Assembly (NCBI GenBank): GCA_049968235.1
Contig: JBMFRC010000009.1
Span: forward strand, 68,913-132,912
DNA: 64,000 nt
Origin: Candidatus Hydrogenedens sp.
GTDB lineage: Bacteria; Hydrogenedentota; Hydrogenedentia; Hydrogenedentales; Hydrogenedentaceae
Reading direction: 5' to 3'
The notes under the pieces are model-generated. The model did no database searches and was not told where the DNA came from. It saw nothing but the letters and a program-made list of their open reading frames with translations. The translations under genes and the position numbers were made by a program. Each line of letters starts with the position of its first letter. The first letter of the stretch is position 1. Shown here piece after piece: positions 50,504-64,000 of this stretch.

Positions 50504-50556
50504 ACCTACTTTTTTGTAGTCGTATTATATACGAGCAAATCCTTTTTAATAAATAA

Positions 50557-50915
50557 TGGTGGAGGCGGCGGGAATCGAACCCGCGTCCGAAGATGTTTCA
50601 GTGCGGACCTACTACATGCTTAGCCCATCCTTTATAGATTCGCCATTGCGGAGCGCCTCAGGGCGGGCTCACCACAACCGCTATGCGGGATAGTTACTGC
50701 CTTTCAGGCACCGCAAATCCCAAAAGGACAGACCTGCTGGTTGACGCCCCAGTCCGTTAGCAGGCAATCACGGGTGGGACGCGCTGCGCGTATTAGGCAG
50801 CGAGGGCCAATTCTTGATTGGCAGTTGTTTGCGACCGGCTTTTAACGAGGCCAACCGGTCAACCTCGGCATGCATTCCACACCTCAACCATCCCCGTCGA
50901 AACCTTTTCGCCCCC
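50557..50915 (-). ncRNA. ssrA: tmRNA (SsrA).
   Basis: On the - strand the 5' end is GGGGGCGAAAAGGTTTCGACGGGG. The 3' tRNA-like end is GGACGCGGGTTCGATTCCCGCCGCCTCCACCA. The internal tag reading frame ends ...GCC AAT CAA GAA TTG GCC CTC GCT GCC TAA (ANQELALAA-stop). Confidence 0.9.
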
Positions 50916-51079
50916 AGCAACATCCTATTATTCAATTGTTGTATTATATTATACGATATTTGATATCTAAAAATTTACAATAAAGATAAATTTTTTCAAT
51001 AATATATTATTCTATTACTTATGTTGTCCCTATCTTTCTGGCTAAGATAAAATTAGACATGTCGAGAGGAAGTGAAGTA

Positions 51080-52719
51080 ATGAAAAATTTCTTCTCAAAA
51101 AAATCCTGCAAATCAATCTACTACCCTTTTGGATTCATTTTTTCTATCGTGCTAATTAATACGATTGCAAATAGTGAAGGAAATCAACCAACATCTTTAT
51201 CTACAACAATAGACCCCATTACTCGTTATATTCACATTTCATATACAGTCCCTGCAGGTACACCCGGAGAAAAACAATCTTATGCTCATGATCTCCTATG
51301 GACAGACAACACATAGTCCTGAAACAAACCCATTACTACACAGGTTATACCGAAAGTAGAATTGATTATATTAAGTTAGTCCCCTTATCCACAGAACAGG
51401 TACAAATGTTAGAAAGCCAATTTGGAACACCCGACAAAATCGTTGCAGGCTATTTTGAACCTTACTCATGGGCATTCTTCGAGGATATACAGGAAAGCCT
51501 GCAACATCGAGAACCTATTTCCACATATAAGGAAGCACGAGTTAATATCGTAGACATCCAGGTGGGTCGCTTCGGCATGAAAGTCGTTTATGAATCACGC
51601 TTAACCGACCAATTTCTTTACAACACTATCGGCGACCCTATCGGCGGTGTTATCCCCCATACAAGTAATGTCGGAAAAATGCAACAAATGACCAACACAT
51701 TACAAACCGAACTCCAATATGCCCACGAATTAGGCTTAACCGCACACGCCAACTTCGGAGCGACCTACTGCTATCCCGACACACCATTACAAAGTGATTT
51801 TTCAAAACAACACCCCGATTGGATGACGGACGGATTATTGAGATATGACATACCCGAAGTTCGTCAATATATCTTATCCTTACTAAAAGAGACGCTTGAA
51901 ATTGGTGCAGATGGCATCTCCATAGATTTTTGTAGGTATCCCGGTGGTATTGACAAACCTGAAACTTGCAATCAATTCCTGCGAGAACTCAAAGCACTAC
52001 GCGAAGAATTTGCAAAAAAACGTGATAAATCCATACCCTTATTACTCCGTTTCCCGGCGGAAGGTGTAAGTCTCTGGAAAAATTTCGACTACAACACATG
52101 GATTCATGAAGGATTAGTTGATTACCTCTGCCCAAGCAACATCTAGGGCAGACATATGCACTTCGACATCACCCCATACAGCAACGCCGTTCGTGGCTCA
52201 ACATGCAAACTACTCCCCGTCATTGATGGATTAAGTTGGGGACTCGAAATACCCGCCCTATTCCTATGGCGTATCCATCAACTCTACCAGGCAGGCACCG
52301 ACGGCATTTATGTATACCAATCCGACGCACGCATCTGCACCAATAAACGACCAGAAGACAGACGCTGTATACGACTCATTTCCAGTAGCGAAGCAGTTCA
52401 TAACTGGTGGCAACGATACAACAAACAAAATCAACAATTTAGCAAACGCATCTGGATACAACCCTCCGAAGACGGAGACCTCGAATACCATAACTGGGAA
52501 CGCTGTCGAATCTGGGTAGAAGGAATTACCCCTAACGAGGTCCAAATCCTCCTCGATGGACAACTCACCAATACTTATACTCAACCTCCCTAAATACTTG
52601 GCGGAGAAGATTACACCTACGATAACCTTATCACCCCCGGCACACACACCCTCACCATCCACGCCAAAACACAAGACACCACTCTATCCCAAACTTTCAC
52701 CATCTCCGGCACAAAATAA
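51080..52719 (+). pseudogene. Disrupted GHL10/DUF4015-like glycoside-hydrolase-like gene (frameshift plus two in-frame stops).
   Basis: Signal-peptide ORF in frame 2 (MKNFFSKK...) runs into the frame-1 ORF near 51290-51300. Frame 1 then continues through TAG 52144-52146 and TAA 52591-52593 to TAA 52717. The motif GADGISIDFCRYPGG resembles GHL10 DGIHLDYIRYP. The C-terminus has an Ig-like beta segment (YTYDNLITPGTHTLTIHAKTQDTTLSQTFTISG). Confidence 0.55.
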
Positions 52720-52792
52720 TAAGAACATTTATATTTCCGAACATCTTTCTCCCTTTTAAGAGATGAAACATTTTTTGTTCCTAAATTTTGTT

Positions 52793-53056
52793 TTATAAGG
52801 ATAGAATTACACTATTAGAATCTACCCCATATTTATTGAAATATTGGTTTATATCCTTATAATGTTTTATTCGGTGAGGGTCCAAATAATACAATTCCCA
52901 ATGGCTAAGACTATTTATTATATAGTCCATGATTCTTTCATATTCTCTTTCATTCCGAATCACGTGTTCGTAATAATTCCTTTGCCATGACTTCCTGTTT
53001 TCGTTTTCCAATCCAAAATTCTTATCCCCACATATATAGCCATTTGTTGTCATCAT
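52793..53056 (-). mobile_element. C-terminal fragment of an IS200/IS605-family Y1 (REP-associated, RAYT-like) transposase. Probably a remnant.
   Basis: WQRNYYEHVIRNEREYERIMDYIINSL parallels the RAYT/TnpA(IS200) C-terminus (FWEHAIRN..DY...DYI..NP). The HUH-containing N-terminal half is missing. Confidence 0.5.
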
Positions 53057-53155
53057 CTTAAATCACTGTAATACTTTTGACAGTAATACCTACGATGATA
53101 CTTGTATTGGCAAATCCATGTGTTCACTTTAAATATTAATAACATCTACAGAATT

Positions 53156-54475
53156 TCAAAACTCGAATTTCAGTACCCAGGCGTGTTGGCATGGGATTTG
53201 GGCAGGGGAGACGCAAGGTGTAGTTATAACTATTTGCCCGTATTGGTCTTCCGCATTTACCGGAATGTCTGTGCCGAGTAAGGTTACTTTGGGCACGGTC
53301 TGGAACTCAGCTGGTTTGGGGATGGTCCATGTCTCGGGGGGCCATTTCAACGCTATGGCATATATTGCATTCCCTTTGCGTGTGAAACGGAAATTCTCCA
53401 TCTTCGGTGCATCTTTCCATACATCCGTTCCGTAGATAGCATCACCGTTAACTTCTAACCATTTGCCCATCTCCAACAACCGTTCCTGCATTATCTCCGG
53501 TATGCGTCCATCTGCGGATGGACCTATGTCCAATAGTAGGTTACCACCCCGTGAGACATTATCTATGAGCAGGTGAAGCAATTCCGCGGTGCTACGGTAA
53601 TTTTCCGCCGTCTCATTTCGGTTATAACCAAATGACCGACCCATACCCTGGCACTCTTCAAACAGTCCCTTTTCCATCAACGGACCCTCGGGGATATGTC
53701 CATACTCAGGTGTTGCAAAACCTCCATGTATATTACGACAATCTTTGCCCCAGCGGTCATTTACAACGATATCCTTTGGTGCGGGCGATTCATTAAACAG
53801 CCAAGCTAAAAACTCCGTGCTCCGCCAGACAGAACTCGGATGGTCCCACTCCCCATCAGACCAGAACACATCCGGTTGATAGCGAATAATTAAGTCTTTC
53901 ATCTGCGGTAACATATGTTCCTCTACATAGCGATGTACATCCTGTTTATACAGCGGGTTGAACCATTCATATAATGAGTAGTAAAACCCGGCTTTAAGTC
54001 CAGCATTCTTTACTGCACTGATAAGGTCGCCTGCGAGGTCTCGATGCGGTCCGATGTCCATTGCGTTCCAATTCCAACTTTGCATACTGGGCCACATACA
54101 AAAGCCATCGTGATGTTTGGATGTCAAAACGACATATTTCGCACCCGACCTTTTAAATATATCTGCCCATTGGTTCGGGTCATATAATTCTGCTTTGAAC
54201 ATTGGTGCAAAGTCCTGATATTGGAATTTTTCACCATATTTCTCAACATGGAATTTCCATGTGGCACCCTCTTTATTTTGCATGTGATTCCAATACCATT
54301 CCGAATAAGTTTCCTTGGGTGCCCATGACGGGACGGAATATACCCCCCAGTGAATAAAAATACCAAATTTGGCATCTTCAAACCATTGCGGATTAGGTCG
54401 CTGGTCCAATGATTCCCATGTGGGCTCATAAGCAGTGGCAATAGCGGTCGCAATAACAAAGGATGTTAATAACAT
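53156..54475 (-). CDS. Alpha-L-fucosidase (GH29), secreted.
   Basis: FGIFIHWGVYSVPSW and HHDGFCMWPS are GH29 motifs. N-terminal signal-like segment. Confidence 0.85.
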   Translation of the reverse strand: MLLTSFVIATAIATAYEPTWESLDQRPNPQWFEDAKFGIFIHWGVYSVPSWAPKETYSEWYWNHMQNKEGATWKFHVEKYGEKFQYQDFAPMFKAELYDPNQWADIFKRSGAKYVVLTSKHHDGFCMWPSMQSWNWNAMDIGPHRDLAGDLISAVKNAGLKAGFYYSLYEWFNPLYKQDVHRYVEEHMLPQMKDLIIRYQPDVFWSDGEWDHPSSVWRSTEFLAWLFNESPAPKDIVVNDRWGKDCRNIHGGFATPEYGHIPEGPLMEKGLFEECQGMGRSFGYNRNETAENYRSTAELLHLLIDNVSRGGNLLLDIGPSADGRIPEIMQERLLEMGKWLEVNGDAIYGTDVWKDAPKMENFRFTRKGNAIYAIALKWPPETWTIPKPAEFQTVPKVTLLGTDIPVNAEDQYGQIVITTPCVSPAQIPCQHAWVLKFEF

Positions 54476-54500
54476 AAGATATGCTCCTATCGTTTAAAAT

Positions 54501-56867
54501 TTATTTTACTTTTAATTCTGTTATAACAATGCTATATGGTGGAATTTCCATTTCAGGGAAGGCTTTCTTATTGATTTTTTCTTCCTTCAGCCAGACGCCA
54601 GGTTCAGTATCAGGCAGGTTAATGGACATTGGGTCTTTGCCCGTGAGTATCCATGCGGTTTTCGGTGGTGTCACCTCCTTGCCTGCTACACCTACATGGA
54701 TATTAATTGCCCTATCCATGGGGTTTACCACAGAGAGAGTTAATATCCCCTCTTGCCCATCTTTCCAGGCAGAGAAAACATCAATTGGTACCATAGATAC
54801 CCCTGCCTGATTGCTATCGGATAGCGGTTTTACCTCGACAGCTACAGGCACAGAACCGAAATGCTGACGGTACAGCATCAGGGTAAGCCCTGTCGTATCA
54901 AAGAAAGCAGTTGTTTTGGTAGTTTTAATGGCAGATATTACATTTACAGTCTGGGCATAATTTGCCATCGTTATTACATCACTATTGCGGAAAAATTCAT
55001 GCAGACCAATAGCCACGCCTAAGGCATCTTTCAGGTGGTAAACACAACCTAACTCACCATAGACATGGTCGCCATACCAATAGTTCCATTCGTCCATTGC
55101 AATGGGCACAAATTTCTCCTTTAAAGCAGGTATCGTTTCCAAATAACCTTTATGATTTTTAACTTTGGCTTTTATTCTCTCGGCTAACTGGTAAACATGT
55201 TCAAGCACATCCTTTTTTTCTCCACAATAAAAGTGTTCACTTATAAAATCCATATTATTTGCACAATTTTCCAGCATTTTCTGGCTCCAGATACCCATAT
55301 TTTCGCCTACACCCACTAACTTAATATTCGGGTCAACTGCTTTCATTGCTTGCGCAAATTCATTATGCCTCTTAACATAGTCATCCACAGGGATATGTCC
55401 CAATTGCCACTCGCCATACATTTCATTGCCAACGCCCCAGTAGGTAATTTTGTATGGTTCGGGGTTGCCATTATCGGCACGCCATTTGCCCATAGGAGTA
55501 TCAACTGAGCCATTAGCATATTCGACCATATCACGTGCTAACTGCACATCGCCCAGACCTGTATTAACCACCGCCAACGGTTCTGTTCCTATTTCTCTAC
55601 AGAATTGGATAAATTCGTCTATACCAAAATCATTGGTATCAATACCTCCCCAGGCTGGGTTCTTGCGTGTTGGACGTTTATCCGGGTCTCCAATGCCGTC
55701 TTTCCAGTTATAACCACTGACGAAATTGCCACCAGGCCAGCGATAAATGGGCGAATTAAGTTGTCTAAGCAAGGTTAATGTATCCGCTCTCATCCCTTTG
55801 ATATTATCTCCAGGCATAAGTGAGACCGCACCAATGAATAGGTTACCCTGCCCTGTAGCAAGAATAGCAAATTGAGCAGGTTTGCCATCTTTATCCACTT
55901 TCAATCGGAATGTATATTTCTGATAATCCTGTGAAATATTTTGGATAATAGCGGGTTCGCCCAATAAAGTGTCGCCAGAACGAAGGACAATTTTAACTAT
56001 AACATCCGTATGCGTCGATTTTAGCACAATCCTACCCACATATTCCTTACCTGCAACCACTTCTAATCCATCCTGCACCAGCCCCCGTTCATGCCTCTGA
56101 TTTAGCAGTATAACAGGCGAATACCAACTCGTATATGGATGAATCTGATCAATAAAGAGCATCATGTCCGATGGGAACAATTTCCATGGGGAATCGTTGG
56201 TGTTGATGAGGTAGAAGAACTTGCGGTCTTCCAGCGTTTCTGCCCAGATACCACCATAAATACAGCGACCTAAATGTTCGATAAATTGACCGTAGATAAA
56301 TGGATGTATCGGAGTGCCTTTCTTTGAGGGGTCGATAGAAATGTTCATATCACCTATCACCATATCTGATATTTTTTCTAATTTTATATCATCAAATATG
56401 GCGGAACCTTTCGCCAAACCCCAACCCCCAAAAAGGCAATTCACCATAATTCGTGTTTGTGAACCGACAAAAAAGGTAGATTCAACATATTTCCAATCAT
56501 TCGTTCCGGATAATGCTTCTGTGCGAGCACCATCAATTCCATGAACATTGAGTAATGCACCCACACCATTTTCTAATTGAATGTTATCTGTTTTAATCCA
56601 GCCGGAGAGTTTGTATTGGGCAAATGGGTCAACATCAATTTCATTGAACCAGGATAAATCACCACCTTCGGTGGAAGAAATCTGGACTGCATTGCCACTT
56701 TTCCCCGGTACGGGATATTGGAATTCACCTTTACCCTGCCAGACCCTTGTCTGCCAGTTATCAGGGGCAGTTGAGCCCTGTTCGAAGGCTTCTTCAAACA
56801 TGATTTGAGCAAAAACAAAAGGGGTTAAAAGGATAAACATTACGAATATGACTGAGTTTGGTTTCAT
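54501..56867 (-). CDS. Secreted GH51 alpha-L-arabinofuranosidase with an N-terminal carbohydrate-binding (galactose-binding-like) module.
   Basis: Signal peptide. YWGVGNEMYGEWQLGH carries the GH51 acid/base Glu. IAMDEWNYW carries the GH51 nucleophile Glu. An N-terminal beta-sandwich region of about 170 aa. Confidence 0.8.
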   Translation of the reverse strand: MKPNSVIFVMFILLTPFVFAQIMFEEAFEQGSTAPDNWQTRVWQGKGEFQYPVPGKSGNAVQISSTEGGDLSWFNEIDVDPFAQYKLSGWIKTDNIQLENGVGALLNVHGIDGARTEALSGTNDWKYVESTFFVGSQTRIMVNCLFGGWGLAKGSAIFDDIKLEKISDMVIGDMNISIDPSKKGTPIHPFIYGQFIEHLGRCIYGGIWAETLEDRKFFYLINTNDSPWKLFPSDMMLFIDQIHPYTSWYSPVILLNQRHERGLVQDGLEVVAGKEYVGRIVLKSTHTDVIVKIVLRSGDTLLGEPAIIQNISQDYQKYTFRLKVDKDGKPAQFAILATGQGNLFIGAVSLMPGDNIKGMRADTLTLLRQLNSPIYRWPGGNFVSGYNWKDGIGDPDKRPTRKNPAWGGIDTNDFGIDEFIQFCREIGTEPLAVVNTGLGDVQLARDMVEYANGSVDTPMGKWRADNGNPEPYKITYWGVGNEMYGEWQLGHIPVDDYVKRHNEFAQAMKAVDPNIKLVGVGENMGIWSQKMLENCANNMDFISEHFYCGEKKDVLEHVYQLAERIKAKVKNHKGYLETIPALKEKFVPIAMDEWNYWYGDHVYGELGCVYHLKDALGVAIGLHEFFRNSDVITMANYAQTVNVISAIKTTKTTAFFDTTGLTLMLYRQHFGSVPVAVEVKPLSDSNQAGVSMVPIDVFSAWKDGQEGILTLSVVNPMDRAINIHVGVAGKEVTPPKTAWILTGKDPMSINLPDTEPGVWLKEEKINKKAFPEMEIPPYSIVITELKVK

Positions 56868-56946
56868 ATTTGTTTCTCCATGTTTGGATTTAATAATTGT
56901 TATGGCAAAAAAGGAAAGATAAATGCAAATAAAGTTGGGGGAGAAT

Positions 56947-56974
56947 CGGACGGGTCGGACGGGTCAGACGGGGT
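56947..56974. repeat. 9-bp tandem repeat array A, (CGGACGGGT)x3 in GTCRGACRR register, just 5' of tRNA-Pro.
   Basis: The same family is seen in arrays at 57113-57168, 57544-57598 and 57786-57822. Confidence 0.7.
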
Positions 56975-57024
56975 GATGGTGAAATTGCTATTTTTGAGGT
57001 AGAATAGATATAATAGTGTTGTTT

Positions 57025-57102
57025 CGGGGCGTAGCGCAGTCCGGCTAGCGCACTTGGTTTGGGTCCAAGGGGTCGCCGGTTCAAATCCGGCCGCCCCGAC
57101 CA
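57025..57102 (+). tRNA. tRNA-Pro (TGG).
   Basis: Acceptor CGGGGCG/CGCCCCG, anticodon stem-loop CTTGG-TTTGGGT-CCAAG, T-arm GCCGG-TTCAAAT-CCGGC, discriminator A, CCA encoded. Confidence 0.85.
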
Positions 57103-57112
57103 TGAAGTTAAA

Positions 57113-57168
57113 GGGTCAGACAAGTCAGACGGGTCGGACAGGTCAGACAAGTCGGACAAGTCGGACGA
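57113..57168. repeat. 9-bp tandem repeat array B, (GTCRGACRR)x6, immediately 3' of tRNA-Pro.
   Basis: Reads GTCAGACAA GTCAGACGG GTCGGACAG GTCAGACAA GTCGGACAA GTCGGACGA. Confidence 0.75.
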
Positions 57169-57195
57169 AAAAACACAAAATAGAAAGGAAGGGTT

Positions 57196-57786
57196 ATGTC
57201 TGATGGGAGGTTAATTCCTCCACATGGGGGCTATCGGAGATTGCGGAGTTTTCAAGTAGCACAGGAGATATATGACGCGACGGTATTGTTTTGTTAGCGG
57301 TTTATTGATAAGAAGTCAAGAACATATGACCAGATGATTCAGGCGAGCAGGAGTGGGGTTCAAAATATTGCAGAAGGGAGTGTGGCGTCTGCGACATCAA
57401 AGAAGATGGAGATTAAGTTGACAGGTGTGGCAAAGGCAAGTTTGGAGGAGTTGTTGCGGGATTATGAGGATTATTTGAGACAACATGGTTTGAAACAATG
57501 GGGTAAGGATTCGCCGGAGGCAGGAAGGATAAGGGAGATGTATAAGTCGGACAGGTTGGACAAGTTAGACGAGGTGGACCCGTCAGACAAGTCGGATATT
57601 TATGGGATAAGGACAGCGTCGGCAGAGGTTGCGGGGAATACGGTGATTTGTTTGATTCATCAGGCGACATATTTGTTGAGGAAGCAGTTAGAACGTTTGG
57701 AACGGGAGTTTTTGGAGAAGGGTGGTTTTACGGAGCGGATGTATTGGGAACGAAAACGTTGGCGAGAGAGAGAGAAGAAAGAGTAG
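57196..57786 (+). CDS. Four-helix-bundle protein (TIGR02436-like, the 23S rRNA IVS-protein family) with a C-terminal suffix domain. The frame is interrupted by one in-frame TAG at 57295-57297.
   Basis: N-terminal helix MSDGRLIPPHGGYRRLRSFQVAQEIYDATVLFC, then TAG, then RFIDKKSRTYDQMIQASRSGVQNIAEGSVASATSKKMEIKLTGVAKASLEEL. All in one frame and matching the family consensus (...QIRRAAVSIPANIAEGS...). Repeat array C lies inside the coding sequence (KSDRLDKLDEVDPSDKSD). Confidence 0.6.
57544..57598. repeat. 9-bp tandem repeat array C (degenerate, x6), inside the four-helix-bundle coding sequence.
   Basis: Reads GTCGGACAG GTTGGACAA GTTAGACGA GGTGGACCC GTCAGACAA GTCGGATAT. Confidence 0.6.
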
Positions 57787-57822
57787 AGTCGGACGGGTCG
57801 GACGGGTCGGACAAGTCGGACA
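57786..57822. repeat. 9-bp tandem repeat array D, (GTCGGACRR)x4, immediately after the four-helix-bundle stop.
   Basis: Reads GTCGGACGG GTCGGACGG GTCGGACAA GTCGGACA. Confidence 0.75.
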
Positions 57823-57958
57823 TTTAAAACAGATAAAAATGAAAAAAAATAAACGAATCAAATTGAAGGCTATACCTCCCGTTAATTTGCCAGGATAATC
57901 CTTCCTATTTTACTATTTGAGTATTCTAATTTTATGAAATTAATAGAAAGGGATTGTC

Positions 57959-60900
57959 ATGGAAAGAAACATTTGTCATTTCATTACGAATCATGAACAA
58001 AAAAGTCTTCGGGAACGTATAAGAGAACTTATTACTATCAGCAAAGAACTTAAAATTTTAGTGGGTTTCTTCTATTTTTCCGGGATAACAGAGTTGTATG
58101 AAAGTTTACAAAAAAATCCTAACATTGTGATTAAAGTGCTTATAGGTATGGATGTCGATAAATTAATTAATAAGTTGATTGAATATGCCAATCCAGACAC
58201 CTCATTAACTGATAAAGATAGAATTGACTATTTTTTTAAATCATTAAAAACGGCTCTTACTTCCGAAGATATGGACCGTCCCGAGCCCTACCGACAGATT
58301 TCTTATTTCCTGAAACTCATCCAGGAAAATCGTATTATCATCCGAAAAACAAGAAAACCCAATCATTCAAAACTTTATATCTTCAAAATATCAGAAGGGC
58401 AGGATTTAATTCGCGATACGCTATTCATCACGGGAAGTAGCAATTTGACACACGCAGGTCTATCGGGACAGGGCGAGTTCAATGTTGAAATAAGTGATTA
58501 TGGAACAAAAGAAGCGGAAGCGTTTTTTGACGATTTATGGGATGATGCAGTGAAAATCACAGAAACAGAGGAAACAAAAAAGAAACTAATCCAGATTATC
58601 AATACGGAAACAATGTTTGCATCGATAAAACCTTTTGAGGCTTATACCCTGGTCCTGAAATCCTACCTTGATGCAAATAGTATGAAAGAGGTTAGTTTAG
58701 AGTCCCTTAAAGAAACTATGGAGAAAAAAGGATATGTGCCTTATAAATATCAGATGGACGCTGTTCAATTAGCTTTATCTATTATCAATGCTTATGACGG
58801 CGTTATTATTGCCGACGTGGTCGGTTTGGGCAAAACGATTATTGCCTGTGCCGTAGCCCGACTTTTAAGAAAACGCGGAATTGTCATCTCTCCACCGGGG
58901 ATTATGGGCGATGAGTTGAGGCAATATGGTTGGCGTAAGTATATCGAAGAATTTGGTCTCTATGACTGGGAGGTTTTTTCCAGCGGGAAACTTGATACCA
59001 TATTGAAAACAGTTCGTAGATGTGAAGATATTGAGGTGATTATCATTGATGAAGCACATAAATACCGCAATCAGGATACAGAAAGTTACGAACTGTTAAA
59101 AAATATATGTCTGCATAAAAAAGTTATCCTTTTAACTGCAACTCCGTTCAGTAATTCTCCCAGTGATGTATTTTCATTACTAAAATTATTTACTGTTCCG
59201 GGCAAATCAAAGTTATCCCTGACTGATAATTTAGATTTTCTGTTTAATGAATACAAAAATACTTTTAATCAATTATCACATATACAAAAATACCATGATT
59301 CGCAAGATGCAGAGAAAAAACAAAAAGCACAGACCTATTATAATAAGTTATTCGGTTCAGATAATATTGATTTAACAACGGTAAAAAAGCGGACAAAATA
59401 CCTTGCCAATACAATTCGCTCAATTATCCAGCCTGTGCTTATACGGCGAAATCGGATTGACCTACAAAATGACCCGGATTACCAAAACGAGATTAAGGAT
59501 TTATCCAGATTAGAAAATCCGAAAGAGTTGTTCTATGAGTTAAGCCCGGACCAATCGCTGTTTTACGATAAAGTTATTAGCACTTACTTTGGTGAAAACG
59601 GTGCATTTTCAGGTGCTATTTATCGCCCGTATTATTACGAAGAAAAATCCGATTTGGAAGATATCGATGAGGATATAGAAACCAATGGTAAGGATGGGAA
59701 AAAAGTGGAGGAACAGAGAGAACAACTAAGCCAGAAAAACTTATATGATTTTATGAGACGATTATTAGTGAAACGATTTGAGAGTTCTTTCGGTGCGTTC
59801 CAACAAAGCGTTAAAAATTTTATTGAGATTCATAAAAAGATACTTCAATTCATTGAAAAAACAAACAAATATATCCTCAATCGCAAGTTATTGGAACATA
59901 TTTATGAAATGGACCCGGATGAAATTGACGAGGAATTAGAACGATTTAAAGAAGAAATTGCAAAATTAGATAAACCCGACTCACATATCCATAAGGTTTA
60001 TGATTTGAAGGACTTCCACTTCAAGGATGAGTTTATTAAAAATATTAATGATGATATTCAATTGTTTGAAGGAATTCTCAAAGAGATTGAAGACCTTCAT
60101 TTGATACAGAAAGACCCGAAATCGAAATCTTTAGCAGAAGAAATCCCAAAAATTATCCAGAATAAAGAAGAAAATGAATCCAAACGAAAGATAGTTATCT
60201 TTACTGAGTATATAGATACAGCCCGCCATTTAGAAGAACAGATGAAGCACTTATTACCCGAAAACTTGAAAAATCGTATTTTAACAGTCATAGGAAAGCC
60301 GTCCGATGACCGTTATGAGACGCTATTAAAAAATTTCGATGCCAGTTATGAAAAGAACCAACAGGAAGATACCTATGACATTCTTATAACAACAGACCGA
60401 CTTTCCGAAGGATTTAATCTGAATCGTGCTGGCGCAGTTATTAATTATGATATTCCGTGGAACCCGACACGGGTCATACAGCGTGTAGGACGAATAAATC
60501 GAATCAGTAAAAAGGTCTACAATACTTTATATATCTACAATTTCTTCCCAACAGAAACAGGTGCTGATGTTGTCAAAAGTCGTGAAATAGCCCAGCATAA
60601 GATGTTCCTCATTCATAATACAATTGGTGAAGATGCCCGTATTTTTGAGCCCGATGAGGAACCTACTGCTTCGCGATTATACACCAAAGTTATGACTCTT
60701 CCGGATGAACTCGAGCCAGAAAGTTTATATACGACCATAAAGAAGAAATATTACGAGATAAAAAAGAACTATCCGGAAGTCATTCGAACCATAGAGAAAT
60801 ACCCTTCACGTGTAAAAACGGCAAAGAAATACCACACCTACAACCTCGTTGTATTTTTAAGAAAAGGCAGAAGTATATTTGTAAAATATACCGATGGAAC

Positions 60901-61357
60901 ACCTGGCACAACCGCTGAAAAACCGCTTGAAGATGCATTGAATTATATCCAGTGTGAATATGAAGAACAACCCCTTCACATTTCAGACAAATTCTGGAAT
61001 AATTATATATCTCTCATTGAAGTAGCAACTACGGATTTTTCAAGAGGAAGGAAAATTTGGACTGAGGCAATGACCAATATTAAAACAATATTGCAACAAT
61101 TACCCGCAGAATTGGATGACTATAAAAGTTTCCTTAACATATTATCAGAAGATATTTCATACTATCGGACATTGTCCGATTATACCATCCGACGAATTCG
61201 AAATCTGAAACTGGATAAGGAAAAACAATTTAAAGAATTTAAAGAGGTCATTGATAAACTGCGAAACGATTTAGGAGATGATTACCTTACTAAAATTAAA
61301 AATGACCTAATATCTATTAAACCAGAAGTTATTATTGCGATGGAGAATCAACCTTAG
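57959..61357 (+). CDS. Fusion of a PLD-family (HKD) nuclease domain with an SNF2/SF2 helicase, 1132 aa.
   Basis: HKD motif NHSKLYIF...FITGSSNLTHAG near the N-terminus. Helicase motif I ADVVGLGKT, motif II IIIDEAHKYRN, motif III LLTATPFSN, motif V-VI ILITTDRLSEGFNLNRAGAVINYDIPWNPTRVIQRVGRINR. Confidence 0.8.
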   Translation: MERNICHFITNHEQKSLRERIRELITISKELKILVGFFYFSGITELYESLQKNPNIVIKVLIGMDVDKLINKLIEYANPDTSLTDKDRIDYFFKSLKTALTSEDMDRPEPYRQISYFLKLIQENRIIIRKTRKPNHSKLYIFKISEGQDLIRDTLFITGSSNLTHAGLSGQGEFNVEISDYGTKEAEAFFDDLWDDAVKITETEETKKKLIQIINTETMFASIKPFEAYTLVLKSYLDANSMKEVSLESLKETMEKKGYVPYKYQMDAVQLALSIINAYDGVIIADVVGLGKTIIACAVARLLRKRGIVISPPGIMGDELRQYGWRKYIEEFGLYDWEVFSSGKLDTILKTVRRCEDIEVIIIDEAHKYRNQDTESYELLKNICLHKKVILLTATPFSNSPSDVFSLLKLFTVPGKSKLSLTDNLDFLFNEYKNTFNQLSHIQKYHDSQDAEKKQKAQTYYNKLFGSDNIDLTTVKKRTKYLANTIRSIIQPVLIRRNRIDLQNDPDYQNEIKDLSRLENPKELFYELSPDQSLFYDKVISTYFGENGAFSGAIYRPYYYEEKSDLEDIDEDIETNGKDGKKVEEQREQLSQKNLYDFMRRLLVKRFESSFGAFQQSVKNFIEIHKKILQFIEKTNKYILNRKLLEHIYEMDPDEIDEELERFKEEIAKLDKPDSHIHKVYDLKDFHFKDEFIKNINDDIQLFEGILKEIEDLHLIQKDPKSKSLAEEIPKIIQNKEENESKRKIVIFTEYIDTARHLEEQMKHLLPENLKNRILTVIGKPSDDRYETLLKNFDASYEKNQQEDTYDILITTDRLSEGFNLNRAGAVINYDIPWNPTRVIQRVGRINRISKKVYNTLYIYNFFPTETGADVVKSREIAQHKMFLIHNTIGEDARIFEPDEEPTASRLYTKVMTLPDELEPESLYTTIKKKYYEIKKNYPEVIRTIEKYPSRVKTAKKYHTYNLVVFLRKGRSIFVKYTDGTPGTTAEKPLEDALNYIQCEYEEQPLHISDKFWNNYISLIEVATTDFSRGRKIWTEAMTNIKTILQQLPAELDDYKSFLNILSEDISYYRTLSDYTIRRIRNLKLDKEKQFKEFKEVIDKLRNDLGDDYLTKIKNDLISIKPEVIIAMENQP

Positions 61358-61380
61358 ACAATTATATAAAGGGGATAAAA

Positions 61381-64000
61381 ATGAACCTGTCTGCCAAAAG
61401 ACATTTAGAGAACTTTATCGGAGCAACAAATTATGATGGGTTACAAAAATCGCTTATATGCTTTTTACAAGAAAAGACGGAACACTTTTCAGAGATGCCT
61501 GAGGACTATTCATTTCATTTTCGGGATGATAATTTTAATGAAGTCCAAAAAGTTGGTGAATTATCTCTAACACCGTCGTATGCTGAAGAAGGAGATAGTA
61601 CAGAAAAATTTATCGTGGTTACACTCCATACCACAGGGGGACTAACAGAGCGGAGTAGTAAAAAGCGTCAGTTCGACAAAGGGAAACAAATATTAAAAAC
61701 TTTGTATCAGACAGGCAATTTTGACCTCATCGGCGGTTTTTTCATTTTTTATGATGACGATTTTAATTATCGTTGGAGTTTGATTTATCAAGAACCGGCG
61801 GGCAGAAGATTACAATATAACCCCTACAAACGATATACCTATTTCGTATCACGAAATTTGACAAATAAAACCTTCATTCAGCAGTTATGTGCGGATGAAT
61901 CCTTTGACAGGTTAAATGACATCAAATCCGCATTCTCCGTAGAAAAGGTTACCCGAGAGTTTTATAACAAGGTGGCACAATGGTATTTCTGGGTGCTATC
62001 TGATGAAAAGATTAAATATCCCCCATCCGTTCCTAACCAAAACAACGGAAGAGAGTTGTTTTTAATCCGTCTCTTATCTCGATTGATTTTTATCTGGTTC
62101 ATGAAAGAGAAAAAACTTATTCCGGGAAAATTGTTCGATAGACAGGAATTAAGAAGCTATCTGCATGATATTGAAGATGACGGAACTGCTTATTACAATG
62201 CCATCCTCCAGAATTTATTCTTCGCTACACTGAACACACCTCAGGACAGACGACAATTCCGCAATGATAAACAATATCAAGGCAAGAATAACGATTACAT
62301 GAACCATAATAAATACAGGTATAAGGAACTATTCAAAAATGAAACGGATATAGAAGAGCTCTTCCAACCGATACCGTTCCTGAACGGCGGTCTATTTGAG
62401 TGTCTGGATAAAAGTAGAAAAGACCCAAAGAACCCGACAGAAGGAGAACTACGGCTGGATGGCTTCTCTTCATCGCATCAAAAACATCCTAATATTAGAA
62501 ATATCTTCTTTTTCGGTGAGGAACAAACGGTCGATATTAGTAAATATTTTGGGGACAATTCATATAAATCCGCAAAGGTTTACGGAATTATTGAAATATT
62601 AAAGGATTACAATTTCACGATTGATGAAAATGTTCCCGGTGATGAAGAAGTTGCCCTTGACCCGGAACTACTCGGAAAAATATTTGAAAATCTGCTTGCC
62701 AGTTATAACGAAGAGACATCGACCACCGCCAGAAAAGCCTCCGGCAGTTATTACACACCCCGCGAGATTGTAGAATTCATGTGTCGTGCTTCTCTGGTGG
62801 AATACCTGAAATTATGCCTGATTAAAAAGGGCTCTGCGGTTGATGTTAACGAGAAATCGCTGGATGAAAAACTTCATCAATTATTAGACCCTCATCAGGA
62901 AGAACTGCCCGTTTTTTCCGAAACGGAAAAGGATACACTCATCCATGCCATTAACAATCTTAAAGTATTGGACCCTGCGGTAGGTTCGGGAGCCTTTTTG
63001 ATGGGAATGTTACAACAACTTGTCCATATCCTATCTAAACTTGACCCACATAATGAGATGTGGAAACAACAGCAGATAGAGGGGGTAAAAAAATCTGTTT
63101 CCGACCCACAACTCCGGAATGAGTTAATCAACAAAATTGAAGAACAATTTCAAAAGAATGAACTGGACTACGGTAGGAAATTATATCTCATCCAGAACTG
63201 CCTGTTTGGTGTGGATATTCAACCTATTGCCATACAACTGGCAAAACTCCGCTTCTTTATCGCACTACTGGTGGATGAAAAGGTTGATAAAACACAGAAA
63301 AACAGCGGGATAGAACCTCTGCCTAATCTTGAAACAAAACTCGTCCCCGCAGATACTCTTCGTTCCTTAAACATAAAAACCGAAGACCTGTCTTCACCCG
63401 AAATACAGGAAGAAGAAAGGAAATTATTCGAGTTAAGAAAAAAATATTTTAGCGAATCAGACCAGAGAAAGAAAGAAACGATAAAAGAGGAGGATAAGAA
63501 AACGCGAAATAGAATAGAAGAATTACTTAAACAGGATTCTTTATATAATGATAAATTAGAAACTATCCTTGCATGGGACCCCTATGATGCCCATATTTCT
63601 GCGGACTGGTTCGACCCTGAATGGATGTTCGGCATCGACACAGGTTTCGACATCGTTATCGCTAATCCGCCGTATATCCAACTGCAAAAAGAGGGAGGGA
63701 AACTCGCTAAATTATACGAAAAACAAAACTACCAGACCTTTGCCCGCACGGGCGATATTTATGCCCTTTTTTACGAAAAAGGAATTCAAATACTGAGAGA
63801 TGGAGGACATCTTTGCTTCATTACCTCAAATAAATGGATGCGTGCGGGCTATGGTGAAAAATTGCGGAGTTTTTTTACACAATACAACCCATTGCTTCTT
63901 ATCGATTTGGGACCTGGTGTGTTTGAAAATGCTACTGTCGATACCAATATATTGCTGATACAAAAAAAGCAAACTCCAGCAAAACACCTCAAAGCCGTAA
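61381..64000 (+). CDS. Large gamma-class N6-adenine DNA methyltransferase (Eco57I/PglX/DrmMI/type IIG-like). 3' partial at the window edge.
   Basis: GSYYTPREIVEFM, motif I VLDPAVGSGAFL and motif IV IANPPYIQ, with motif I before motif IV. Long N-terminal region of about 400 aa, as in PglX-like enzymes. No stop before the window ends. Confidence 0.8.
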   Translation, partial: MNLSAKRHLENFIGATNYDGLQKSLICFLQEKTEHFSEMPEDYSFHFRDDNFNEVQKVGELSLTPSYAEEGDSTEKFIVVTLHTTGGLTERSSKKRQFDKGKQILKTLYQTGNFDLIGGFFIFYDDDFNYRWSLIYQEPAGRRLQYNPYKRYTYFVSRNLTNKTFIQQLCADESFDRLNDIKSAFSVEKVTREFYNKVAQWYFWVLSDEKIKYPPSVPNQNNGRELFLIRLLSRLIFIWFMKEKKLIPGKLFDRQELRSYLHDIEDDGTAYYNAILQNLFFATLNTPQDRRQFRNDKQYQGKNNDYMNHNKYRYKELFKNETDIEELFQPIPFLNGGLFECLDKSRKDPKNPTEGELRLDGFSSSHQKHPNIRNIFFFGEEQTVDISKYFGDNSYKSAKVYGIIEILKDYNFTIDENVPGDEEVALDPELLGKIFENLLASYNEETSTTARKASGSYYTPREIVEFMCRASLVEYLKLCLIKKGSAVDVNEKSLDEKLHQLLDPHQEELPVFSETEKDTLIHAINNLKVLDPAVGSGAFLMGMLQQLVHILSKLDPHNEMWKQQQIEGVKKSVSDPQLRNELINKIEEQFQKNELDYGRKLYLIQNCLFGVDIQPIAIQLAKLRFFIALLVDEKVDKTQKNSGIEPLPNLETKLVPADTLRSLNIKTEDLSSPEIQEEERKLFELRKKYFSESDQRKKETIKEEDKKTRNRIEELLKQDSLYNDKLETILAWDPYDAHISADWFDPEWMFGIDTGFDIVIANPPYIQLQKEGGKLAKLYEKQNYQTFARTGDIYALFYEKGIQILRDGGHLCFITSNKWMRAGYGEKLRSFFTQYNPLLLIDLGPGVFENATVDTNILLIQKKQTPAKHLKAV

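What the first reader, a model, noticed from the sequence alone, without database searches (positions are those of the whole stretch)
57959..64000. PLD-nuclease/SNF2-helicase fusion gene followed by a giant N6-adenine methyltransferase: a candidate unclassified defence module beside tRNA-Pro
Both genes are on the same strand, 23 nt apart. The first (1132 aa) fuses an HKD phospholipase-D-type nuclease domain to a complete SNF2-family helicase core. The second (more than 870 aa, truncated by the window) is a gamma-class adenine methyltransferase with the long N-terminal region typical of BREX PglX, DISARM DrmMI and type IIG/ISP enzymes. Nuclease, translocase and methyltransferase are the functional triad of type ISP, BREX and DISARM systems. 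Here the nuclease is PLD-type rather than Mrr-type. It is fused to the SNF2 translocase and split from the methyltransferase. This resembles a DrmC-DrmD fusion followed by DrmMI (class 1 DISARM order), or a two-gene split type ISP with a swapped nuclease. The locus starts right after tRNA-Pro and a four-helix-bundle gene, a typical island insertion context. The remaining genes (DrmA/DrmB-like, PglZ-like, or none) lie beyond the window.
Basis: partly seen in the sequence, partly recalled or inferred. Interest (0 to 1): 0.8.

Follow-up and report, generated by a model that had tools for sequence, protein, structure and literature searches.

The report
PLD–SNF2 nuclease plus methyltransferase gene pair
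Two adjacent genes, one encoding a DNA-cutting domain fused to a DNA-tracking motor and the other a large DNA adenine methylase, form a widespread, self-contained restriction-modification-like module that has been seen in passing before but has no name and no experimental test; it is not a piece of DISARM or BREX.

Summary
Gene A (57959-61357, 1132 aa) has an N-terminal PLD/HKD nuclease domain above Pfam's cut-off, fused to a complete SNF2 ATPase. Gene B starts 23 nt later. It is an Eco57I-family gamma-class N6-adenine methyltransferase, cut at residue 873 by the end of the contig itself.

The DISARM/BREX reading does not hold. Every one of 26 related loci with at least 6 kb on both sides of A carries a B homologue. 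No third gene is conserved: no DrmA/DrmB, PglZ, BrxC, DUF499 or DUF3780 turned up. Four look-ups started from B each found A. The pairing reaches archaeal and cyanobacterial plasmids. B's N-terminal domain has a restriction-endonuclease-like topology but no conserved catalytic triad.

Best reading: a two-subunit ATP-dependent restriction-modification system. B recognises and methylates sites. A, probably dimerised through its PLD domain like SauUSI, translocates and cuts unmodified DNA.

The pair was noted in passing in Bacteroides ovatus in 2023, and PADLOC holds an 'HKD+Snf2' model. It remains unnamed and uncharacterised, and annotation tools would call B 'Type IIG' and ignore A. The tRNA-island idea is not supported.

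Verdict: new variant of a known kind, moderate interest.

The parts
57959..61357 (+). Gene A: PLD(HKD) nuclease fused to an SNF2 ATPase, 1132 aa. Proposed restriction/translocase subunit.
   Evidence: ORF. Pfam PLDc_2, SNF2-rel_dom and Helicase_C all above cut-off. PADLOC 'C3a139 HKD+Snf2' matches residues 95-900. 100% identical to NCBI MGC8738620.1 'helicase-related protein', Candidatus Hydrogenedens sp..
57959..58558 (+). A residues 1-200: single-HKD PLD-family nuclease domain. H136 is at 58364-58366 and K138 at 58370-58372.
   Evidence: Pfam PLDc_2 at 98-194 and RE_NgoFVII at 122-202. Invariant K130, T131, H136, K138, G159, N162, E173 and N175 in 17-25 homologues. phmmer with this domain finds 322 clusters at 50% identity with E<=1e-10; the full-length ones are all about 1050-1220 aa.
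58736..60598 (+). A residues 260-880: SNF2 ATPase core, made of lobe 1, a helical insertion at about 531-735, and lobe 2. Walker A is at 58823-58837, the DEAH box at 59048-59059 and motif VI at 60479-60502.
60599..61354 (+). A residues 881-1132: conserved C-terminal alpha/beta plus helical domain of unknown role. Inferred to be an interface with B or with DNA.
   Evidence: No Pfam or PADLOC hit. Conserved to the last residues (I1125, A1127, E1129 and N1130 invariant). Modelled with pLDDT mostly 80-90.
61358..61380 (+). 23-nt spacer between A and B carrying an AAAGGGG ribosome-binding-like stretch.
   Evidence: Sequence. No terminator-like site lies between the genes. In 37 adjacent A->B pairs elsewhere the median spacing is -4 nt, and 31 of 37 are at most 30 nt.
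61381..64000 (+). Gene B (5' part, 873 codons, cut by the contig end): Eco57I-family gamma-class N6-adenine DNA methyltransferase. Proposed modification and specificity subunit.
   Evidence: Translation. Pfam Eco57I and N6_Mtase. PADLOC REase_MTase_IIG at 302 bits. A partial from a sister MAG, P0241 (1053 aa), continues into sequence (LTKDAWFIGS...) that matches the conserved C-terminal consensus of the full-length homologues. Those full-length homologues of about 1020-1330 aa carry Pfam TaqI_C. P0241 itself gave no TaqI_C hit.
61381..61860 (+). B residues 1-160: alpha/beta domain with restriction-endonuclease-like topology and no conserved catalytic triad. Probably not an active nuclease.
   Evidence: AF2 secondary structure a-bbb-a-bbb. 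Foldseek aligns about 920 columns with the type IIL enzyme DrdV and the type IIB enzyme BsaXI. The only residues conserved at 95% or more are G59, R131, S133 and R151, with no conserved D...(D/E)xK. No match to the N-terminal 200 positions of the PADLOC IIG profile.
62731..63999 (+). B residues 451-873: methyltransferase catalytic domain. Motif X (GSYYTP) is at 62743-62760, motif I (DPAVGSGAF) at 62971-62997 and motif IV (NPPY) at 63664-63675.
   Evidence: Invariant columns in 33-44 homologues. The Foldseek top hits, PglX/BrxX (8c45, 9ewz) and CamA, cover this core.

Best explanation
Genes A and B together are a self-contained, two-subunit, ATP-dependent restriction-modification-like defence system.

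B is the modification and specificity subunit. It is a gamma-class N6-adenine methyltransferase built like type IIG/IIL enzymes and PglX. Its full-length relatives carry a TaqI-like C-terminal target-recognition domain. Its N-terminal restriction-endonuclease-like domain has lost the catalytic residues.

A is the restriction subunit. Its single HKD half-site means that two PLD domains must pair to form one active site, as in Nuc, BfiI and SauUSI. Its SNF2 core is a double-stranded-DNA translocase.

Proposed cycle (inferred): B methylates one adenine in a short, probably asymmetric motif on host DNA. When B meets an unmethylated site on incoming DNA, it licenses the ATPase of an A dimer. A then tracks along the duplex and cuts away from the site.

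Shown here: the domain content, the intact catalytic motifs, the strict and reciprocal A-B co-occurrence with overlapping or near-overlapping genes, the absence of any other conserved partner, and the absence of a conserved nuclease triad in B.

Inferred: the defence role, the physical A-B complex, the division of labour and the order of events.
For: 1. Domains and motifs of A and B are intact, and the folds agree.
2. Co-occurrence from A's side: 65 of 82 related loci carry B, and all 17 exceptions are contigs truncated next to A. Among loci with at least 6 kb on both sides, 26 of 26 carry B.
3. Co-occurrence from B's side: 4 of 4 look-ups started from B homologues found a PLD-SNF2 gene beside them.
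4. Even 25-27%-identical relatives on a Microcystis plasmid and on the 14.9-kb archaeal plasmid pMETOK01 pair a PLD-SNF2 protein with an Eco57I-type methyltransferase.
5. Spacing points to co-translation: the median A->B spacing is -4 nt, and 31 of 37 pairs are at most 30 nt apart.
6. No third gene is conserved. The nearest full-length pair, L086, sits between a Na/H exchanger gene and opposite-strand prophage genes.
7. Genes wedged between A and B in some loci are AlbA_2/HATPase_c_4, DUF1016/YhcG, Fic and Abi_2. DUF1016 and Fic-type genes also sit beside type I R-M genes (PMC9881135 Table 1 and discussion; otherwise my own knowledge).
8. Some relatives carry an invertible specificity cassette with a serine invertase (L043, L052). 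A long-read-confirmed programmed inversion in such a methyltransferase, with an upstream PLD+SNF gene, is reported for Bacteroides ovatus (PMC9881135).
9. Mechanistic precedent: SauUSI, a PLD-SF2 fusion, is a stable dimer held by its nuclease domains. Target recognition switches on its ATPase, and it translocates and shreds DNA (PMC7913695).
10. Second precedent: CglI/NgoAVII combine a PLD nuclease subunit with a separate SF2 motor (PMC5861437).
11. A Prevotella intermedia 'Type IIG' gene of B's size, with an upstream SNF2/RAD54 helicase gene, gave m6A at GGYGAB when expressed in E. coli (PMC5608340). Its homology to B was not verified by sequence.
Against: - No member of the family has been tested for phage or plasmid restriction, for nuclease activity, or for A-B binding.
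- B is incomplete in this assembly and in two sister assemblies. Its specificity domain, and whatever follows it in this organism, cannot be seen.
- B's N-terminal domain keeps a nuclease-like fold. A non-canonical active site cannot be excluded from sequence alone.
- The PLD domain has no significant sequence match to any solved PLD nuclease (best E=0.38). The AF2 model is least confident at the active-site loop, residues 161-175.
- SNF2 plus PglX-like methyltransferase pairs in DISARM class 1, BREX-3 and ARMADA work together with further proteins. A purely two-protein mechanism is therefore an assumption.
Confidence: 0.62

Rival explanations
1. B is a complete, stand-alone type IIG/IIL restriction-modification enzyme that uses its own N-terminal nuclease. 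A is a separate or accessory enzyme: a SauUSI-like modification-dependent (type IV) nuclease, or a booster of B.
For: - PADLOC's best matches for B are REase_MTase_IIG profiles, at 302 and 271 bits.
- Foldseek aligns about 920 columns of B with DrdV (type IIL) and BsaXI.
- B's first 160 residues have an alpha-beta-beta-beta-alpha-beta topology.
- Similar genes are named Type IIG, for example Pin17FIII (PMC5608340).
- PMC9881135 describes such methyltransferases as homologues of Cj0031 of C. jejuni. That Cj0031 is a type IIG enzyme is my own knowledge.
- PLD-helicase fusions do act alone as type IV enzymes, as SauUSI does.
Against: - No acidic or lysine residue is conserved in B residues 1-160 across 33-44 homologues. 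This genome's own protein has H where many relatives have K.
- That region does not align to the nuclease part of the IIG profile.
- A and B co-occur in 26 of 26 loci from A's side and 4 of 4 from B's side, mostly with overlapping stop and start codons. Two independent systems would not do that.
- A has no recognisable modified-base reader domain.
Confidence: 0.15
2. The two genes are the visible start of a larger known system whose remaining genes lie beyond the contig end: class 1 DISARM (DrmD-DrmMI-DrmABC), ARMADA (SNF2 + PglX-like methyltransferase + YprA helicase) or a DUF499-centred BREX-related/Hma system.
For: - The contig ends inside B, so the downstream genes are unknown.
- An SNF2 helicase next to a PglX-like methyltransferase is the shared pair of DISARM class 1, BREX-3 and ARMADA (bioRxiv 10.1101/2025.09.15.676423).
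- HKD-SNF2 helicases are the effectors of 'Type-2 BR' systems (PMC12839542).
- A's best PADLOC and NCBIfam names are DrmD.
Against: - No YprA/DrmA, DUF1998, DUF499, DUF3780, PglZ or BrxC gene is conserved next to any of 82 relatives.
- The nearest complete pair is flanked by unrelated genes.
- The DrmD match covers only the ATPase C-lobe region and scores 137 bits against a cut-off of 610.
- Methyltransferases of the BR systems carry DUF1156 and are PglXI-like. B is Eco57I/TaqI_C-type.
- A already carries the nuclease that those systems supply in trans.
Confidence: 0.07
3. The pair is mainly an epigenetic or non-degradative device. B would be a phase-variable methyltransferase that resets gene expression (a phasevarion), or the pair would exclude phage in a BREX-like way without cleavage. 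A would act as a DNA remodeller, and its PLD domain would be structural or act on something other than DNA.
For: - Invertible specificity cassettes with invertase genes occur in relatives and in B. ovatus.
- PMC9881135 states that Cj0031 phase-varies through a polyG tract. That its switching alters gene expression is my own knowledge.
- B's closest solved structures by Foldseek are PglX/BrxX. My own knowledge: BREX is not known to act by simple cleavage.
- In class 1 DISARM the PLD protein DrmC is dispensable for protection (10.1101/2021.12.28.474362).
Against: - The HKD catalytic residues of A are invariant across phyla. That argues for a working phosphodiesterase.
- The two genes stay coupled even on small plasmids.
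- Phase-variable specificity is equally typical of true restriction systems.
Confidence: 0.08

Closest known systems
Type ISP restriction-modification enzymes (LlaGI, LlaBIII)
   Same: Both hold the same three activities: a nuclease, an ATP-driven dsDNA translocase, and a gamma-class adenine methyltransferase with its own target-recognition domain. Both are expected to use an asymmetric site with one-strand methylation and to cut away from the site (own knowledge; the methylation logic is discussed).
   Different: Type ISP enzymes are a single polypeptide with an Mrr/PD-(D/E)xK nuclease and a type-I-like SF2 motor. Here there are two genes, a PLD nuclease and an SNF2 motor. No sequence match to a type ISP structure was found.
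Class 1 DISARM (DrmD + DrmMI + DrmA/DrmB/DrmC)
   Same: An SNF2 helicase gene directly precedes a large N6-adenine methyltransferase gene, and a PLD nuclease is part of the system. A's best PADLOC and NCBIfam names are DrmD.
   Different: The defining DrmA/DrmB core is absent from all relatives. The PLD is fused to the SNF2 protein. Its similarity to DrmC is marginal (E=0.006). Scores for DrmD and DrmMI are far below family level.
ARMADA (ArmA SNF2 + ArmB PglX-like methyltransferase + YprA-like helicase-nuclease) and BREX type 3 (BrxHII + PglXI)
   Same: Both use the same two-gene core idea, an SNF2/RapA-like ATPase next to a PglX-like methyltransferase. A aligns along RapA over about 1100-1200 columns.
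   Different: Those systems need a YprA helicase carrying the nuclease, or PglZ/BrxC. Here the nuclease is built into the SNF2 protein and no further partner is conserved.
Type-2 'BREX-related' (BR) / Hma-like systems (HKD-SNF2 helicase + DUF1156 N6-methyltransferase + DUF499 ATPase + DUF3780)
   Same: The effector architecture matches: an N-terminal HKD nuclease on an SNF2 helicase, paired with an N6-adenine methyltransferase. Both are proposed to act like restriction-modification systems (PMC12839542).
   Different: No DUF499 ATPase and no DUF3780 gene occurs in the relatives. B is Eco57I/TaqI_C-type, not DUF1156/PglXI-type. The PADLOC HmaA match is partial, 83 bits over residues 591-867 only.
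Type IIG/IIL enzymes (Eco57I, MmeI, DrdV, Cj0031)
   Same: B shares their overall layout of an N-terminal alpha/beta domain, a helical spacer with the NGGLF motif, a gamma-class methyltransferase and a C-terminal specificity domain. B also shares their Pfam families Eco57I, MmeI_Mtase and TaqI_C.
   Different: B has no conserved PD-(D/E)xK residues. B is always accompanied by a separate ATP-dependent nuclease-motor, which type IIG enzymes do not need.
SauUSI (type IV) and CglI/NgoAVII
   Same: All couple a PLD-family nuclease to an SF2 ATP-driven translocase. SauUSI is fused and dimerises through its PLD domains. CglI has separate R and H subunits.

Membership tests
Class 1 DISARM | Core genes drmA (helicase) and drmB (DUF1998) in the locus. 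PADLOC requires DrmA, DrmB, DrmC, DrmD and DrmMI. | tested here: not met
   The window and contig end inside B, so this genome cannot be read. In 82 related loci, 26 of them with full flanks, no such gene is conserved. No DUF1998 hit was among the conserved families in 38 scanned neighbours.
Class 1 DISARM | The SNF2 protein is a DrmD equivalog and the methyltransferase is a DrmMI. | tested here: not met
   NCBIfam DISARM_DrmD scores 137 bits against a cut-off of 610, over residues 586-877 only. PADLOC DrmMI scores 70 bits against 302 bits for the IIG profile.
BREX (types 1-6) | PglZ phosphatase and BrxC/PglY ATPase genes next to PglX. | tested here: not met
   Neither appeared among the neighbours of relatives. 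NCBIfam PglX models score 79, 58 and 47 bits against cut-offs of 500, 900 and 400.
DUF499-centred BREX-related (BR type 2) / Hma | DUF499 AAA+ ATPase, DUF3780 protein and a DUF1156-type N6-methyltransferase alongside the HKD-SNF2 helicase. | tested here: not met
   No DUF499, DUF3780 or DUF1156 hit in B, in 38 neighbours, or in the distant plasmid relatives.
ARMADA | A YprA-like (DUF1998-containing) helicase encoded with the SNF2 and PglX-like pair. | tested here: not met
   No conserved third helicase gene in relatives. Downstream DNA of this genome is unavailable.
Type ISP restriction-modification | Nuclease, motor, methyltransferase and recognition domain in one polypeptide, with an Mrr-type nuclease. 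| tested here: not met
   There are two ORFs separated by a stop codon and 23 nt, and the nuclease is PLD-type.
Type IIG/IIL restriction-modification | An active endonuclease domain in the same chain as the methyltransferase. | tested here: not met
   The fold topology is present. No D...(D/E)xK triad is conserved in 33-44 homologues, and the region does not align to the nuclease part of the IIG profile. Absence of activity itself is not testable here.
Type IIG/IIL restriction-modification | A gamma-class N6-adenine methyltransferase of the Eco57I/MmeI type with a C-terminal specificity domain. | tested here: met
   Pfam Eco57I scores 128 bits. Motifs X, I and IV are in gamma order. Full-length homologues carry TaqI_C. 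The sister-MAG partial P0241 extends into sequence matching their conserved C-terminal consensus, but did not itself score TaqI_C.
PLD/HKD nuclease superfamily | HxK...GSxN motif with the accompanying acidic residue, and a profile score above the curated cut-off. | tested here: met
   PLDc_2 scores 32.8 bits against 27, and RE_NgoFVII 29.6 against 23.8. H136, K138, G159, N162, E173 and N175 are invariant. Catalysis is not testable here.
SNF2 family ATPases | A two-lobe SF2 core with SNF2-specific motifs and helical insertions. | tested here: met
Restriction-modification systems in general | Methylation protects host DNA, and the nuclease cuts unmethylated DNA. | not testable with these tools
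   This needs methylome data and restriction assays. The only indirect support is m6A at GGYGAB from a probably related Prevotella gene, whose homology was not verified.

The most novel reading that the evidence does not exclude
The PLD-SNF2 plus Eco57I-type methyltransferase pair is a distinct, still unnamed class of ATP-dependent restriction-modification system, found in hundreds of bacterial and archaeal species. In it, the cis nuclease of a type IIG/IIL-like enzyme has decayed and been replaced by a trans-acting subunit, a PLD nuclease riding an SNF2 dsDNA translocase. It would be the minimal free-standing form of the 'SNF2 + PglX-like methyltransferase' pair that DISARM class 1, BREX-3 and ARMADA build on. 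That would make it the simplest system in which to learn how such a methyltransferase tells an SNF2 motor that DNA is foreign.
Probability: 0.5. Interest if true: 0.6.

Novelty: new variant of a known kind. Interest (0 to 1): 0.45.

Why it matters
1. Hidden by current annotation. From the profile hits here, pipelines would label B 'Type IIG' (PADLOC REase_MTase_IIG). NCBI names A 'helicase-related protein'. A widespread two-component system is therefore hidden and probably miscounted as single-protein type IIG enzymes.

2. A simple model for harder systems. How a PglX-like methyltransferase communicates with an SNF2 ATPase is unresolved for BREX-3, class 1 DISARM and ARMADA. A two-protein version with a built-in nuclease read-out would be the easiest to reconstitute.

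3. A third nuclease-motor combination. PLD nuclease plus SNF2 motor would add to the PD-(D/E)xK plus HsdR-like motors of types I, III and ISP. If it shreds DNA as SauUSI does, it could be a strong barrier to gene transfer in gut Bacteroidales, where relatives occur and switch specificity by inversion.

4. Limit of the claim. The finding is not a new principle. It stays within the logic of restriction-modification.

Tried and rejected
- **Downstream DNA of this genome.** Exact look-ups of A found no record. The cluster look-up showed that the contig ends at B residue 873, and that two sister MAGs break inside B as well, at 892 and 1053 aa. The downstream context cannot be obtained.
- **DISARM, BREX, BR type 2/Hma and ARMADA membership.** All rejected on neighbourhood and profile scores.
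- **tRNA-linked genomic island.** Rejected. Composition is not deviant. A related genome has the flanking block inverted, with the tRNA distal. The compositionally odd stretch is 50-58 kb, not the A-B genes.
- **Four-helix-bundle gene as part of the module.** Rejected. It is absent from L001 and all other relatives, and it carries an in-frame stop codon.
- **Sequence link of the PLD domain to solved nucleases.** Nothing significant was found; the best was Zucchini at E=0.38.
- **Sequence link to Prevotella intermedia Pin17FIII.** The genome is not in the searchable collections, so this remains a literature lead.
- **Phage carriage.** Only three weak partial hits in 50,697 phage records.
- **Literature searches.** Combining Eco57I with SNF2 and HKD or PLD found no paper.
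- **Promoter and terminator scan.** Nothing beyond chance.
- **ORF-picker artefact.** My greedy ORF picker missed A in L044 because of an overlap with B. Translation showed A to be intact there.

Full report
**What is in the window**

The ORF at 57959-61357 (+) encodes 1132 aa. Pfam places a PLD-like domain at residues 98-194 (PLDc_2, 32.8 bits, curated cut-off 27; RE_NgoFVII PLD domain, 29.6 against 23.8). It also finds an SNF2-related domain and Helicase_C.

In an alignment of 25 full-length homologues at 50-68% identity, the following are invariant:
- the HKD residues H136 and K138, with G159-S-S-N162, E173 and N175
- the ATPase motifs Walker A (G289-L-G-K292), DEAH (364-367), TATP (393-396) and QRxGRINR (841-848)

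Twenty-three nucleotides after A's stop codon, an ATG at 61381 opens a frame that runs to the last base of the window, 873 codons. It is an Eco57I-family N6-adenine methyltransferase (Pfam Eco57I 128 bits, N6_Mtase 59 bits). Its motifs are in gamma-class order: GSYYTP at 455-460, DPAVGSGAF at 531-539 and NPPY at 762-765.

One correction matters. The window end is the end of the 132,912-bp contig of a Candidatus Hydrogenedens MAG, and NCBI lists B as an 873-aa partial. Two sister assemblies also break inside B, at 892 and 1053 aa. The longest partial, P0241, runs into sequence (LTKDAWFIGS...) that matches the conserved C-terminal consensus of the full-length homologues, which carry Pfam TaqI_C. 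P0241 itself did not score TaqI_C.

**Is the pair part of something bigger?**

Downstream DNA of this genome does not exist in the assembly, so I used relatives. Further loci came from exact-protein look-ups.

ORF calling and all-against-all clustering gave one clear result. The only gene family that travels with A is an Eco57I-type methyltransferase of about 1020-1330 aa, present in 65 of 82 loci. All 17 loci without it are contigs truncated next to A. Among loci with at least 6 kb on both sides, 26 of 26 have it.

The usual order is A then B on one strand. The median spacing is -4 nt, and 31 of 37 adjacent pairs are at most 30 nt apart. Sometimes B lies upstream with one to a few genes in between.

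The link holds in the other direction too. Four look-ups that started from B homologues each found a PLD-SNF2 gene beside B. Three of those had divergent N-termini.

The nearest complete pair is L086, with A 55% and B 60% identical to the window's genes. It sits between a Na/H exchanger gene and opposite-strand prophage genes. Relatives at only 25-27% identity keep the pairing, on a Microcystis plasmid and on the 14.9-kb Methanothermococcus okinawensis plasmid.

A Pfam scan covered 38 neighbours, including all 15 large ones. It found no DUF1998, PglZ, DUF499 or DUF3780. What recurs between or beside A and B is AlbA_2/HATPase_c_4, DUF1016/YhcG, Fic and Abi_2. DUF1016 and Fic-type genes are also reported beside type I R-M genes (PMC9881135).

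**Comparison with named systems**

- PADLOC's top name for A is DrmD, but the match covers only the C-lobe region. The only near-full-length match is a model labelled 'C3a139, HKD+Snf2'.
- NCBIfam DrmD scores 137 bits against a cut-off of 610. The PglX models score 47-79 bits against cut-offs of 400-900.
- DISARM is defined by DrmA, DrmB and DrmC, and PADLOC requires all five class 1 genes.
- The 2026 'Type-2 BREX-related' systems do use an HKD-SNF2 helicase. They are built around a DUF499 ATPase, a DUF3780 protein and a DUF1156/PglXI-like methyltransferase, and none of these is present here.
- ARMADA, class 1 DISARM and BREX-3 share an SNF2/RapA-like helicase next to a PglX-like methyltransferase. 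The present pair looks like that same core with the nuclease moved onto the SNF2 protein and nothing else added.
- B scores best against PADLOC's type IIG profiles, at 302 bits. Its model (pLDDT 82.7) aligns over about 920 columns with the type IIL enzyme DrdV and with BsaXI. Its methyltransferase core is closest to PglX/BrxX and CamA.

**Does B carry its own nuclease?**

Residues 1-160 fold as alpha-beta-beta-beta-alpha-beta-beta-beta, a topology like that of restriction endonucleases. Across 33-44 homologues the residues in this stretch conserved at 95% or more are G59, R131, S133 and R151. No acidic-acidic-lysine triad is kept, and this genome's protein has H83 where many relatives have lysine. 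The region also fails to align with the first 200 positions of the type IIG profile, although the rest of B does align.

I conclude, by inference, that B's own nuclease is defunct or was never one, and that A supplies the cutting activity.

**Mechanism**

The shown and inferred steps are kept apart.

Shown:
- The catalytic motifs of a PLD phosphodiesterase, an SNF2 ATPase and an adenine methyltransferase are intact.
- A and B are strictly and reciprocally linked, with overlapping or near-overlapping genes.
- No other partner is conserved.

From established knowledge:
- A single HKD motif forms an active site only as a dimer (Nuc, BfiI).
- SNF2 enzymes track along duplex DNA without unwinding it.
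- SauUSI, a PLD-SF2 fusion, is a stable dimer held by its nuclease domains. Target recognition switches on its ATPase, and it translocates and shreds DNA (PMC7913695).
- CglI and NgoAVII pair a PLD nuclease with a separate SF2 motor (PMC5861437).

Inferred:
- B methylates host sites.
- B bound at an unmethylated site licenses an A dimer.
- The A dimer translocates and cleaves at a distance from the site.

Confidence differs by claim. That the pair is a self-contained module, about 0.9. That it acts as a restriction-modification-like defence, about 0.6-0.65. The detailed order of events, about 0.4.

**Prior sightings**

[quoted passage not shown] The inversion in the methyltransferase gene was confirmed by long reads (PMC9881135).
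- I see the same device in relatives L043 and L052. Each has inverted repeats of 76 nt, or of 37 and 29 nt, inside the 3' part of B, plus a reversed B fragment and a resolvase-type invertase gene.
- A 2017 Prevotella intermedia study describes a 1117-aa 'Type IIG' gene with an upstream SNF2/RAD54 helicase and a reversed 305-aa fragment. The gene gave m6A at GGYGAB in E. coli (PMC5608340). I could not check its homology, because the genome is not in the searchable collections.
- I found no paper that names, defines or tests the pair as a system.

**Context claims**

The island idea is not supported.
- GC content is 0.351 for A and 0.389 for B, against 0.374 for the window. The tetranucleotide distance of 58-64 kb is unremarkable (z=0.78). 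The stretch 50-58 kb is the odd one, with z up to 3.5.
- A related genome, L001, has the same pair next to the same glycosidase and fucosidase genes. There the block from tRNA-Pro through the glycosidase to the fucosidase is inverted relative to A-B, so the tRNA is distal and there is no four-helix-bundle gene.
- The flanking proteins are 86-93% identical between the two genomes. A is 68% identical and the N-terminal part of B is 53%. This fits fast divergence or allele replacement at a fixed locus.

**Verdict**

The locus is a real, intact (as far as it can be read), widespread two-gene module. It is best read as a two-subunit ATP-dependent restriction-modification system with a PLD-SNF2 restriction subunit. 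It is a new variant of a known kind rather than a new principle, and it has been glimpsed before, so I rate its interest as moderate, 0.45. Its main value is as an unnamed system now hidden under 'Type IIG' labels, and as the simplest available model for how SNF2 motors and PglX-like methyltransferases work together.

Noticed in passing
window 56945-56972, 57113-57167, 57546-57597, 57788-57821: Tandem 9-nt repeats of the form (RR)GTCRGAC occur only here in the 64 kb: 12 pattern matches against 0 expected. They bracket tRNA-Pro and the four-helix-bundle gene. One set lies inside that gene, where it encodes SD(K/R)LD-like repeats. No Rfam family matches them.
   Followed up: partly
window 57197-57786 (+): The four-helix-bundle gene (TIGR02436 N-terminal part plus TIGR04258 suffix domain) is one reading frame of about 196 codons, interrupted by an in-frame TAG at 57295-57297. 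It is a pseudogene, a sequencing error or a read-through.
   Followed up: partly
window 53158-57103 versus L001 5715-9672: The block tRNA-Pro / 788-aa glycoside hydrolase / 439-aa alpha-L-fucosidase is inverted relative to the A-B pair between this genome and a related one, at 80% nucleotide identity. One inversion end-point lies just upstream of gene A.
   Followed up: partly
window about 50000-58000: This stretch has the most deviant composition in the window. It holds the tmRNA at 50557-50915, the fucosidase, the glycoside hydrolase, tRNA-Pro and the four-helix-bundle gene. GC is 0.40-0.46 against 0.374 for the window, and the tetranucleotide z reaches 3.5. The A-B genes next to it are ordinary.
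   Followed up: no
window 64000 (contig end); P0121, P0241, P0242; L001 and L002 ends: Assemblies repeatedly break inside gene B. Three Hydrogenedens MAGs stop at residues 873, 892 and 1053, and two Logan contigs of a relative both stop at residue 490. This may reflect strain-level variation or an invertible specificity cassette, but it cannot be tested without longer reads.
   Followed up: partly
L043 6660-8582; L052 7226-8788; resolvase genes also at L031 163-750 and L073 7292-7891: Some relatives carry inverted repeats inside the 3' part of B (76 nt at 89% in L043; 37 and 29 nt in L052). With them come a reversed partial copy of B's specificity region and a serine invertase gene (Resolvase + HTH_7). 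Together these look like a specificity-switching cassette.
   Followed up: yes
P0177 residues 511-615; P0185 residues 774-832; P0219 residues 984-1061: A few B homologues have extra domains inserted in mid-protein: a DUF559 (Vsr-like endonuclease fold) domain, or an IS200-type Y1 transposase-like segment. Their significance is unknown.
   Followed up: partly
L087 4658-6292; L039, L040, L046, L014, L009 (cluster 2); L005, L068, L040, L036 (cluster 6); L088 6507-6881; L090 6418-7885: Unrelated defence-type genes are often wedged between or beside A and B. These include AlbA_2/HATPase_c_4 proteins, DUF1016/YhcG nucleases and a small DUF559 protein. On the Microcystis plasmid, a nucleotidyltransferase and a SLATT-domain gene sit there.
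   Followed up: partly
L084 (Allomeiothermus silvanus plasmid pMESIL02) 4849-8179: In this locus a 787-aa 'DNA methyltransferase' and an adjacent 327-aa hypothetical protein lie upstream of the A homologue. I guess, from the sizes and annotation only, that this is a B-type methyltransferase split into two ORFs; their sequences were not compared with B. A further DNA adenine methylase gene lies nearby.
   Followed up: no
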